From: Escherichia coli
Lineage (GTDB): Bacteria; Pseudomonadota; Gammaproteobacteria; Enterobacterales; Enterobacteriaceae
Assembly: GCF_041248615.1 (NCBI RefSeq)
Contig: NZ_CP158426.1
Strand: one strand, 5' to 3'
Length of the DNA: 64,000 bases
Within the stretch, counting starts at the first letter, position 1. Each line of letters begins with the position of its first letter. Shown here in pieces: positions 1,025 to 1,681 of this stretch. Both the position numbers and the translations under genes were made by a program. Below the pieces are notes generated by a model, which worked only from the letters and a program-made list of their open reading frames with translations, searched no databases and was not told the origin of the DNA.

Positions 1025-1057
1025 TTCTTGCAGGAAAAGCATATCACCGGAGGAAAT

Positions 1058-1681
1058 ATGTTTGATGCATCCCTGCTGAATCTGCCGTGGGCAACACTGG
1101 TGACACTGACCAGTGGATACATCGGCTATTTTATTGCGAACGTGGGCCTGAAAGACCATCACAAGCCCATCGAGGTGACATTTACGACGCTGATTTTTGG
1201 CCTGCTGTCAATGATGGTTTACCAGGCTGTTATGTGGGCAGGTCTGAATTCGTGGCTTGCGACACCACCAGCGCTTCTTTGCGCTTTTATTTACGGTGCA
1301 TTGTGGCGCAGATACGGTCGCAAATGGATGTACAGATTCCTGTGGAATCATGATATTTCGTGGTCTGATGACACCAGCTCAGCATGGCAGTCATTGTTCA
1401 ATCAGATGGATTTCACTTTTTCTGAAATCTATGTATATCTTAAGGATGGCTCTGTTTTACTTTCACTAGCACCCGGGCGATTTGCAGGACGGCCTAACGG
1501 TCCTGTCACGTTAGGTAATAAGGGAGATATAATCTTATACGTCACGCACCGGACTACAGTCGGGAGCAATATCTGGACAGAATGCGATAGTGGTGTGGCA
1601 GATGACGGATGGGGAACTCTGGCAACCTATATACCTGCAGAACAGATTGCCAGAGTTGATATCCGACGAGTTTGTCGGTAA
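1058..1681 (+). CDS. hypothetical membrane protein (about 3 N-terminal TM helices plus a C-terminal soluble domain)
   Basis: ORF 1028..1681; GGAGG SD 5 nt before the ATG at 1058; hydrophobic stretches LPWATLVTLTSGYIGYFIANVGL, LIFGLLSMMVYQAVMWAGL, ALLCAFIYGALW. Confidence 0.45.
   Translation: MFDASLLNLPWATLVTLTSGYIGYFIANVGLKDHHKPIEVTFTTLIFGLLSMMVYQAVMWAGLNSWLATPPALLCAFIYGALWRRYGRKWMYRFLWNHDISWSDDTSSAWQSLFNQMDFTFSEIYVYLKDGSVLLSLAPGRFAGRPNGPVTLGNKGDIILYVTHRTTVGSNIWTECDSGVADDGWGTLATYIPAEQIARVDIRRVCR

What the first reader, a model, noticed from the sequence alone, without database searches (positions are those of the whole stretch)
1028..1681. Membrane protein with its own terminator-bounded unit near the prophage edge
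A protein with three predicted N-terminal TM helices and a roughly 110-aa C-terminal domain sits in the distal accessory region. Small membrane proteins in this position are often superinfection-exclusion or abortive-infection factors. I recognise no family.
Basis: inference. Interest (0 to 1): 0.4.

Follow-up and report, generated by a model that had tools for sequence, protein, structure and literature searches.

The report
Prophage membrane Sm-like protein with partner
The gene is real and encodes an uncharacterised inner-membrane protein with an Sm-like cytoplasmic domain, carried with a tiny tail-to-tail partner gene as optional cargo at the end of a Mu-like transposable prophage; it is a plausible but untested candidate for a new phage-conflict module.

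Summary
The ORF is real. The true CDS is most likely ATG 1058-1681 (207 aa), under purifying selection (dN/dS 0.08-0.2). It has three N-terminal TM helices (N-out/C-in by the positive-inside rule). Its roughly 110-aa C-terminal domain folds confidently (pLDDT 91) as an Sm/LSm-like barrel.

It does not belong to the lambdoid prophage that fills the window. It is the last gene of a 37.6-kb BcepMu-like transposable prophage lying mostly upstream, 368 bp from that element's right end (window 2049). That element transposed into a YadA-like gene of the lambdoid prophage (6-bp duplication TCTTCA).

The gene is optional cargo: 639 of 5426 complete E. coli genomes carry this GemA-Mor region, but only 133 gave a megablast match to the gene region. 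It matches phrog_12870 (unknown function) and is remotely DUF6338-like. No PADLOC, PDB or literature match was found.

New finding: a 38-66-aa hydrophilic, Pro/Lys-tailed ORF lies convergently against the gene's 3' end in 28 of 29 lineages, from Enterobacterales to Alphaproteobacteria, and is itself under purifying selection.

Distant homologues sit in other prophages, often beside the repressor, or beside Thoeris and ShosTA/PARIS.

Best reading: a two-gene, lysogen-expressed conflict module (abortive-infection/toxin-antitoxin-like or exclusion). Function is inferred, not shown.

The parts
315..701 (+). mor (Mor/C-family late activator), the last conserved early gene of the BcepMu-like transposable prophage. 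Context only.
   Evidence: Pfam Mor E = 1.8e-43. GemA-Mor lies immediately upstream of the gene in 30 of 33 IMG/VR loci.
720..962 (+). orf80, a Cys-rich 80-aa hypothetical ORF. It is lineage-specific and is part of the optional insert between mor and the right end.
   Evidence: No family match. A 35-39% identical counterpart exists only in the CFS3292 locus and three IMG/VR loci (L016, L030, L031).
989..1028 (+). Intrinsic terminator (stem-loop 989-1021 plus T-run) that ends the early operon about 35 nt before the start codon. It overlaps a weak sigma-70-like candidate promoter: -35 TGGATA 1000-1005, 17-nt spacer, -10 TATTCT 1023-1028. The promoter is my inference and was not detected by the scan.
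   Evidence: Terminator scan. Three different stem sequences keep pairing through compensatory changes, and the T-run plus TAT(T/G)CT is invariant. The promoter matches only 8/12, below the scan threshold.
1058..1681 (+). CDS of the 207-aa membrane protein ('X'). TM helices: TM1 about nt 1088-1138, TM2 about nt 1166-1237, TM3 from about nt 1250, with its helix running on into the cytoplasm to about nt 1348. Sm/LSm-like cytoplasmic domain about nt 1382-1678.
1700..1852 (-). Convergent small ORF: 50 aa, hydrophilic, MATNNNKRD...SSLKDKK. It is a conserved partner whose stop lies 18 nt from the stop of X.
   Evidence: A like ORF abuts or overlaps the 3' end of X in 28 of 29 distinct lineages, against 27% at random positions. 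pN/pS is 0.13-0.22 in close pairs. RefSeq annotates it in some genomes. No Pfam family.
1897..1926 (-). Sigma-70-like promoter (TTGAAA-18-TAGAAT, 10/12) pointing leftward into the small ORF and antisense to X.
   Evidence: It is the only promoter-like site found in 600-2200. It lies in the block that is nearly invariant among four independent insertions.
1847..1931 (.). 19-nt inverted repeat (1847-1865 / 1913-1931) spanning the small ORF's start/RBS and its promoter. Role unknown.
   Evidence: the repeat finder, 89% complementary arms.
2007..2049 (+). Right terminal repeats of the transposable prophage (ATTTATCTCA twice; the element ends ...TGATCA at 2049). Presumed transposase-binding sites.
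   Evidence: Similarity among four insertions in different host genes stops exactly at 2049. Direct repeats. The left end has the mirrored GATAAAT repeats.
2050..2055 (.). Target-site duplication TCTTCA.
   Evidence: The same hexamer flanks the left end of the prophage 37.6 kb upstream in NZ_LT599825.1.
2051..2917 (-). 5' part of a YadA-like gene of the lambdoid prophage, cut by the transposition. Target only, not part of the module.
   Evidence: RefSeq pseudogene 'missing C-terminus'. The C-terminal fragment lies at the other end of the insertion.

Best explanation
Shown. Window 1058-1681 encodes an inner-membrane protein with three TM helices and a C-terminal Sm/LSm-like barrel. Positive-inside charge places the barrel in the cytoplasm (predicted, not shown). 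The gene and a convergent 50-aa ORF (1700-1852, - strand) form a compact cassette. This cassette is optional cargo between mor and the right terminal repeats of a BcepMu-like transposable prophage. The same two-gene arrangement recurs in unrelated prophages and in defence islands of Alpha- and Gammaproteobacteria.

Inferred.
- The cassette is a lysogen-expressed conflict module.
- The membrane protein oligomerises through its Sm-like domain, as Sm/LSm/Hfq rings and the MscS beta-domain do, into a membrane assembly that either perturbs the membrane (abortive infection) or blocks incoming phage genomes (exclusion).
- The small Pro/Lys-tailed protein is its antagonist or regulator. It is made from a strong promoter that fires head-on into X.
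- Regulation would work through transcriptional interference or antisense pairing, and possibly through its ...PxxPKK tail binding the SH3-like Sm barrel.
- Loss of the small protein or of its transcription during infection would release X.
For: Anatomy:
- Three TM helices plus an Sm-like domain.
- The positive-inside rule places the domain in the cytoplasm.

Cargo status:
- 639 of 5426 E. coli genomes carry this GemA-Mor region, but only 133 gave a megablast match to the X region.
- In the one checked prophage without X (MNCRE44, an ST131 isolate to my recollection), mor is followed within about 140 bp by the same terminal repeats.
- The cassette is 44-48% GC, against 54% for the prophage.
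- A conserved terminator with compensatory changes insulates X from the early operon.

Mobility as a unit:
- 30 of 33 viral contigs have X just after Mor, even where Mor is only 36-42% identical.
- Homologues at 35-47% identity sit in other places in other phages: after the tape-measure gene, inside a head module, between the lysis genes and the CI-like repressor, and beside S24 repressors.
- Alphaproteobacterial loci share no neighbour gene.

Defence-island association:
- X lies directly downstream of ThsB (E = 1e-71) and ThsA (E = 1.7e-132) in L060.
- In L065 it lies between an Avs2/pVip/IetA-like cluster and ShosTA (ShosA E = 1e-70) plus PARIS.
- It is near AbiE and integrases in L051.

Partner gene:
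- Present in 28 of 29 lineages, against a 27% random expectation.
- Purifying selection in its frame.
- A 10/12 promoter drives it.
- Identity of the small ORF follows the C-domain of X more closely than the TM part.
Against: - There is no functional datum of any kind.
- No similarity to any PADLOC model or to any characterised exclusion, holin or toxin family.
- Conserved residues are mostly Gly, Pro and aromatic, with no obvious active site.
- Oligomerisation, toxicity and binding of the small protein are analogies, not results.
- The defence-island evidence rests on two to three loci.
- The promoter for X is only 8/12 and is my own reading.
- Some lineages (L037, L039-L041) lack the upstream terminator.
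- The tracking of the small ORF with the C-domain can be explained by physical linkage alone.
- The tight link to Mor across deep divergence could instead mean a role in the phage's own cycle.
Confidence: 0.4

Rival explanations
1. Pure superinfection exclusion. X sits in the inner membrane of the lysogen and blocks genome entry of incoming phages, for example by occupying or altering an inner-membrane component used for DNA translocation, without killing the cell. The small ORF is an accessory or a regulator.
For: - Inner-membrane location with a cytoplasmic nucleic-acid-binding-type fold.
- Position at a prophage end or beside repressor genes, where lysogen-expressed exclusion genes commonly lie (the comparison with rexAB/sieB-type positions is from general knowledge).
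- Optional cargo status.
Against: - No homology to Imm, SieA, HK97 gp15-type or other exclusion proteins.
- Exclusion proteins seldom need a tightly linked convergent partner.
- Chromosomal copies occur in defence islands outside prophages, where exclusion of relatives of a resident phage makes less sense.
Confidence: 0.2
2. A selfish toxin-antitoxin-like addiction or stabilisation module with no anti-phage role. X is a membrane toxin, the small convergent gene (protein and/or antisense transcript) is the antidote, and the pair simply promotes retention of the element that carries it.
For: - A two-gene cassette that moves as a unit with no other conserved neighbour.
- Convergent, overlapping 3' ends as in the prophage-borne type I systems of Bacillus subtilis (general knowledge).
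- A strong promoter for the small gene and a weak or unclear one for X.
Against: - At 207 aa with a folded soluble domain, X is unlike known type I toxins.
- Toxicity is untested.
- Addiction and defence roles are not mutually exclusive.
Confidence: 0.15
3. A function in the phage's own lytic or lysogenic cycle, for example a lysis-timing or holin-like factor, a membrane anchor for replication or transposition, or an RNA-binding regulator at the membrane.
For: - Stable synteny with Mor across deep divergence.
- N-out/C-in three-TM topology like class I holins, with weak Foldseek hits to LydA-type holins (E = 0.02-1).
Against: - Absent from most E. coli prophages with this GemA-Mor region, to judge from the megablast counts, and from the phage PhiKM, which has a GemA-Mor region 98% identical in DNA.
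- A complete holin/SLT lysis cassette lies elsewhere in the prophage.
- Separated from the early operon by a terminator.
- Also occurs outside prophages.
Confidence: 0.1
4. A host-beneficial membrane function unrelated to conflict, for example a small MscS-like or ion channel, or a stress-tolerance factor (lysogenic conversion).
For: The architecture (three TM helices followed by a cytoplasmic Sm-like beta domain) parallels the MscS core (general knowledge).
Against: - hhalign against E. coli MscS finds nothing (probability 0.2%).
- X lacks the MscS alpha-beta domain.
- The distribution is entirely on mobile elements and defence islands.
Confidence: 0.07

Closest known systems
PHROG phrog_12870 (phage protein family of unknown function)
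   Same: Full-length match, E = 1e-98, residues 1-205 to profile positions 1-204 of 210. X is a member.
   Different: The family carries no functional annotation, so membership says nothing about the mechanism.
Pfam DUF6338 (PF19865), an uncharacterised family (a membrane-protein family, to my recollection; its description was not checked here)
   Same: 12 of 23 close homologues give weak hits (best E = 8.5e-6). One RefSeq source names a homologue a 'DUF6338 family protein'.
   Different: The window protein itself gives no Pfam hit at E <= 0.1. At best it is a divergent sister group. Full-text searches found nothing on the function of DUF6338.
Sm/LSm/Hfq fold proteins (and the Sm-like beta domain of MscS; WYL sensor domains)
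   Different: No sequence-level relationship was detected. There is an extra insertion between strands. The domain is tethered to a three-TM anchor. Ring formation and RNA or ligand binding are untested. No similarity to MscS was detectable.
Phage 'morons' / lysogenic-conversion cargo (e.g. lambda rexAB, lom; HK97-type morons)
   Same: Present or absent among closely related prophages; located at a genome end or next to the repressor; lower GC than its surroundings; a terminator upstream.
   Different: Its own promoter is not demonstrated, and no downstream terminator was found. It has a conserved convergent partner gene, which classical morons do not.
Toxin-antitoxin / abortive-infection modules with membrane effectors (e.g. 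type I TA of B. subtilis prophages; RexAB; TM effectors of Thoeris II/CBASS)
   Same: A two-gene mobile cassette with a membrane protein plus a small antagonist-like gene, convergent and overlapping at the 3' ends as in txpA/RatA-type loci. It is associated with prophages and defence islands.
   Different: No homology to any of them. X is far larger than type I toxins. The small gene is protein-coding. Toxicity and defence are untested.

Membership tests
phrog_12870 | Significant full-length match to the family profile | tested here: met
   E = 1e-98, 329.9 bits, residues 1-205 against profile positions 1-204 of 210.
Pfam DUF6338 (PF19865) | Match to the Pfam HMM at or above the gathering score | tested here: inconclusive
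   The query gives no hit at E <= 0.1. 12 of 23 homologues hit weakly, best E = 8.5e-6. Precomputed hits are flagged 'faint'.
Sm/LSm fold | N-terminal alpha-helix followed by a strongly bent five-stranded antiparallel beta-sheet | tested here: met
Sm/LSm fold | Assembly into hexameric or heptameric rings and binding of RNA | not testable with these tools
   No multimer prediction or binding assay was available.
MscS-family mechanosensitive channel | Sequence or profile similarity to the MscS TM3/beta-domain core, plus a C-terminal alpha-beta domain | tested here: not met
Class I holin | Small three-TM N-out/C-in protein encoded in the lysis cassette next to the endolysin | tested here: not met
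   The topology is compatible, but Foldseek hits to holins are weak (E = 0.02-1). The prophage has a separate holin-SLT cassette about 12 kb upstream of X, on the other (late, leftward) arm. X also carries a 110-aa folded domain.
Moron (independently expressed prophage cargo) | Present in some and absent from other closely related phages | tested here: met
   133 genomes with an X match against 639 with this GemA-Mor region. The one checked right end without X keeps the same terminal repeats.
Moron (independently expressed prophage cargo) | Own promoter and own terminator | tested here: inconclusive
   The upstream terminator is conserved. Only an 8/12 promoter candidate was found. No downstream terminator was found.
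Known anti-phage defence systems (PADLOC-DB v2) | Match to any defence-protein model | tested here: not met
   0 families at E <= 1 for X.
Defence-island gene (guilt by association) | Statistically enriched next to known defence systems | tested here: inconclusive
   X is directly adjacent to Thoeris (L060) and to ShosTA/PARIS (L065), and near AbiE (L051). Only about ten non-Mu contexts were seen, and no statistics were computed.
Toxin-antitoxin module | Toxicity of one partner neutralised by the other | not testable with these tools
   Only the conserved two-gene linkage is shown.
BcepMu-like (Bcepmuvirus-type) transposable prophage, as the carrier element | DDE transposase plus ExeA-like B protein, Gam, GemA and Mor; TG...CA ends; target-site duplication; insertions in varied host genes | tested here: met
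   Annotation. PhiKM, whose GemA-Mor region is 98% identical in DNA, is classified in Bcepmuvirus. Independent insertions in ssuB, upstream of malZ, in xylR and in a YadA-like gene. Ends TGAT...ATCA with duplication TCTTCA.

The most novel reading that the evidence does not exclude
The membrane Sm-like protein and its convergent Pro/Lys-tailed micro-protein form a previously undescribed, widely mobile two-gene anti-phage (abortive-infection / TA-like) system. In this reading an Sm/SH3-like cytoplasmic ring gates or assembles a membrane effector. The ring is held in check by a small protein that binds the barrel through a PxxPKK tail, and by head-on transcription.
Probability: 0.22. Interest if true: 0.7.

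Novelty: new variant of a known kind. Interest (0 to 1): 0.45.

Why it matters
If the cassette is a defence or addiction module, it would add a new effector architecture (a membrane-anchored Sm-like domain) and an unusual control logic (a conserved tail-to-tail micro-protein gene) to the catalogue of prophage-borne immunity.

It would also give a function to a family of about 500 clusters at 50% identity (phrog_12870, remotely DUF6338-like) found in prophages of Enterobacterales and Alphaproteobacteria.

It is cheap to test, because the whole unit is about 1.1 kb. If it does nothing in such tests, it remains an ordinary 'hypothetical membrane protein' cargo gene.

Tried and rejected
- Pfam, NCBIfam and PADLOC scans of X gave nothing usable.
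- A PDB sequence-profile search gave only chance-level hits (RRP4, E = 0.4).
- tblastn against 50,697 phage records found a single distant homologue, in Synechococcus phage Ssp-JY41 (32% identity).
- MscS kinship was tested by hhalign and rejected.
- Foldseek against BFVD gave one uncharacterised relative plus weak, non-significant holin hits. I rejected the holin reading because a separate lysis cassette exists and the gene is optional.
- afdb50 was not available.
The scan with A2 returned only 11 loci.
- Rfam found no RNA family in 600-2200.
- A Mor-binding-site reading of the upstream hairpin was rejected. The stem sequence differs between lineages through compensatory changes, while the Mor proteins stay 85-90% identical, which fits an RNA terminator.
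- Literature searches for DUF6338, PF19865, BcepMu with E. coli prophage, Sm-like with anti-phage, and Mu-like with exclusion gave nothing on this protein.
- Catalytic-site hunting: residues conserved across 201 members are mainly Gly, Pro and aromatic, plus H35, R84, T163 and R203. No recognisable motif emerged.

Full report
**1. What is at the coordinates**

The maximal ORF 1028-1681 (+) exists. The biologically sensible start is ATG 1058:
- It is preceded by GGAGGA at 1049-1054.
- Every homologue starts at the equivalent Met (MFDASLLNLPW...).
- The sequence upstream of 1058 is not conserved as protein.

The product is 207 aa.
- Hydropathy gives three hydrophobic segments at about residues 13-31, 40-63 and 65-83. 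There are five Lys/Arg directly after the third and none at the N-terminus or in the TM2-TM3 loop, so N-out/C-in is predicted.
- AlphaFold2 on a 23-sequence alignment (pLDDT 78) gives helices at 11-27, 37-60 and 65-97, then one short helix and a beta-barrel.
- Pairwise dN/dS among nine alleles is 0.08-0.20, so this is a functional gene.

**2. Which prophage it belongs to**

The window is E. coli NRZ14408 (NZ_LT599825.1). The RefSeq annotation shows that the window opens inside a BcepMu-like transposable prophage. That element carries a DDE transposase, an ExeA-like B protein, Gam, GemA and Mor on the + strand, with divergent late genes further upstream. A phage whose GemA-Mor region is 98% identical in DNA, PhiKM, is classified in Bcepmuvirus.

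The gene is the last ORF of this element.
- I aligned four independent insertions: in ssuB, upstream of malZ, in xylR, and here in a YadA-like gene. Similarity stops exactly at window 2049 (...ATTTATCTCATGTCTGATCA).
- The other half of the YadA-like gene and a second copy of TCTTCA flank the left end 37.6 kb upstream. The left end carries mirrored GATAAAT repeats and begins TGAT....
- A Mu-like phage therefore transposed into the cargo region of the lambdoid prophage that fills about 2050-47700 of the window.

**3. Terminators and promoters**

The hairpin at 989-1021 plus its T-run is a textbook intrinsic terminator.
- In related prophages the stem sequence changes (GCGCAA/TTGCGC, GCACGGT/ACCGTGC, ACACAGTG/CACTGTGT) while pairing is kept, and the T-run is invariant. 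It is therefore selected as an RNA structure and ends the early operon.
- Only about 35 nt separate it from the start codon.
- The only promoter candidate is my own reading: -35 TGGATA in the loop, a 17-nt spacer, and -10 TATTCT in the T-run. It matches 8/12, below the scan threshold.
- A few lineages have no terminator here.
- No convincing terminator lies downstream of the gene.

'Terminator-bounded' is therefore half right.

**4. Family and fold**

X matches phrog_12870 over its full length (E = 1e-98, unknown function).
- It has no Pfam hit itself, but 12 of 23 homologues touch DUF6338 weakly.
- PADLOC, NCBIfam and PDB sequence searches are empty.
- An exhaustive profile search finds 521 clusters at 50% identity, nearly all 200-215 aa with the same architecture.
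- Re-predicting residues 97-207 with a 54-sequence alignment gives pLDDT 90.8 and pTM 0.82.

X is therefore a three-TM anchor carrying an Sm-like barrel that is predicted to face the cytoplasm.
- Residues conserved across 201 members are mostly Gly, Pro and aromatic, plus H35, R84, T163 and R203. No catalytic motif is apparent.
- Weak Foldseek hits to three-TM holins are not significant.

**5. Optional cargo**

- This GemA-Mor region is in 639 of 5426 complete E. coli genomes. Only 133 gave a megablast match to the X region; alleles more diverged than about 80% in DNA could be missed.
- In the prophage of MNCRE44 (an ST131 isolate, to my recollection), the one X-less right end I inspected, mor is followed within about 140 bp by the same terminal repeats and then host DNA.
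- The roughly 1.3-kb block (orf80, terminator, X, small ORF) is therefore an insert between mor and attR.
- Its GC content is 44-48%, against 54% for the prophage.
- In IMG/VR, 30 of 33 loci with a homologue have GemA-Mor immediately upstream, even where Mor is only 36-42% identical. The association is old, but the gene is dispensable.

**6. A conserved partner gene (new observation)**

A 50-aa hydrophilic ORF (1700-1852, - strand; MATNNNKRD...KDKK) ends 18 nt from the stop codon of X.
- It has an AAGGA ribosome-binding site.
- It is driven by the only strong promoter-like site in the region, TTGAAA-18-TAGAAT at 1926->1897 (10/12), which lies in the block conserved among insertions.
- RefSeq annotates the equivalent ORF in some genomes.
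- I looked downstream of X in all lineages with enough sequence. In 28 of 29 there is a minus-strand ORF of 38-66 aa whose 3' end lies close to the stop of X: within -14 to +26 nt in most lineages, and overlapping by up to about 70 nt in a few.
- The one exception is L015. The L065 copy looks frameshifted.
- The lineages include Citrobacter, Serratia, Salmonella, Devosia, Rhizobium, Afipia, Sphingobium, Bradyrhizobium, Filomicrobium and Rhodobacteraceae. At random positions in the same loci, 27% have such an ORF.
- The products share three features: an M-[ST]-[DEN]-K start, a central [SY]-x-x-P-K motif, and a Pro-rich end followed by Lys or Asp (...PSPKKK...PPPPKK...APGKK).
- In close pairs, synonymous changes dominate: 13 synonymous against 6 non-synonymous (pN/pS 0.13), and 10 against 8 (pN/pS 0.22). 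It is therefore translated.
- It matches no Pfam family.
- Between alleles, the TM part and the C-domain of X have discordant identities (for example 88-93% against 62-64%). The identity of the small ORF follows the C-domain. This fits a cognate pair, but plain physical linkage explains it equally well.

**7. Contexts of distant homologues**

No neighbour gene is shared among the alphaproteobacterial loci, so the cassette moves alone. It is found in these places:
- after the tape-measure gene at the edge of a prophage remnant;
- inside a head-gene module;
- between the lysis genes and the CI-like repressor of another BcepMu-like phage;
- beside S24-type repressors, including at the left end of a true Mu-family phage;
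- next to Dam methylases;
- near AbiE and integrases;
- beside a resolvase;
- directly downstream of a complete Thoeris, ThsB E = 1e-71 and ThsA E = 1.7e-132 (L060);
- in Rhizobium leguminosarum, between an Avs2/pVip/IetA-like cluster and ShosTA plus PARIS (L065).

This is the distribution expected of a conflict gene. However, only about ten non-Mu contexts were seen, and I computed no enrichment statistic.

**8. Most likely mechanism**

*Shown:* membrane protein, Sm-like domain, optional mobile cargo, conserved convergent coding partner, and occasional defence-island neighbours.

*Inferred:*
- X is made at a low level in the lysogen.
- X oligomerises via its Sm-like domain at the inner face of the membrane.
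- X is the effector of an abortive-infection/TA-like module, or less likely of an exclusion module.
- The small protein antagonises it, through head-on transcription and possibly by docking its PxxPKK tail on the SH3-like barrel.

I give about 0.4 to this conflict-module reading as a whole and about 0.2 to the specific Abi/TA-like mechanism. The rivals, listed with their refutation tests, are pure exclusion, a purely selfish addiction module, a role in the phage's own cycle, and a host-beneficial channel.

**9. Novelty and score**

The family is catalogued but uncharacterised. The Sm-like assignment, the carrier element and the conserved micro-protein partner are, as far as the searched literature shows, undescribed.

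It is a reasonable and cheap-to-test candidate for a new two-gene prophage module, but nothing here demonstrates function. Interest is 0.45.

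Noticed in passing
window 1700-1852 (-), promoter-like site 1926->1897: Conserved 50-aa hydrophilic, Pro/Lys-tailed micro-protein gene convergent with the membrane-protein gene. 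A like ORF occurs in 28 of 29 lineages across two proteobacterial classes and is under purifying selection. No known family.
   Followed up: yes
window 1-2055, plus NZ_LT599825.1 4543946-4581594 (L069, L001): A 37.6-kb BcepMu-like transposable prophage is nested inside the lambdoid prophage. It is inserted in a YadA-like gene, with a 6-bp target duplication TCTTCA and TGAT...ATCA ends carrying GATAAAT repeats.
   Followed up: yes
window 7459-8667 (-), within about 6771-11999: An IS256-family IS1414 transposase gene interrupts the lambdoid tail-tip (J-like) gene. The flanking pieces are annotated as a DUF3672 pseudogene and a 'phage tail protein', so the lambdoid prophage is probably defective.
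   Followed up: no
window 4233-6038 (-): The tail-fibre gene has long collagen-like Gly-X-Y repeat tracts ([19 protein letters not shown]...), followed by a DUF4376 tail-fibre assembly-type gene at 3643-4218.
   Followed up: no
window 2100-2460 (within the YadA-like pseudogene 2051-2917, -): Three near-identical tandem copies of a coiled-coil unit, each repeating the 32-aa sequence GEIGGVYRDARAHTDSQVTAVRDELKAEGDSL, in the stalk of the truncated YadA-like adhesin gene.
   Followed up: no
window 720-962 (+): A Cys-rich 80-aa ORF between mor and the terminator. It is found only in this lineage, in the CFS3292 locus and in three IMG/VR loci (35-39% identity). No family.
   Followed up: partly
window 1847-1865 / 1913-1931: A 19-nt inverted repeat (89% complementary) bracketing the small ORF's RBS/start and the -35 of its promoter, inside the most conserved block of the right end. 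It could be a regulatory or transposase/host-factor site.
   Followed up: no
X alleles: window vs L002/L004; L035 vs L054/L057: Mosaic alleles. The TM part and the Sm-like domain have discordant identities (about 90% against about 60%). This implies recombination within the gene that swaps the C-domain together with the small ORF.
   Followed up: partly
L060 5666-7203; L065 631-12682: Distant homologues of the gene sit directly beside a complete Thoeris (ThsB + ThsA-Macro), and inside an island with Avs2-like, pVip-like, ShosTA and PARIS genes.
   Followed up: partly
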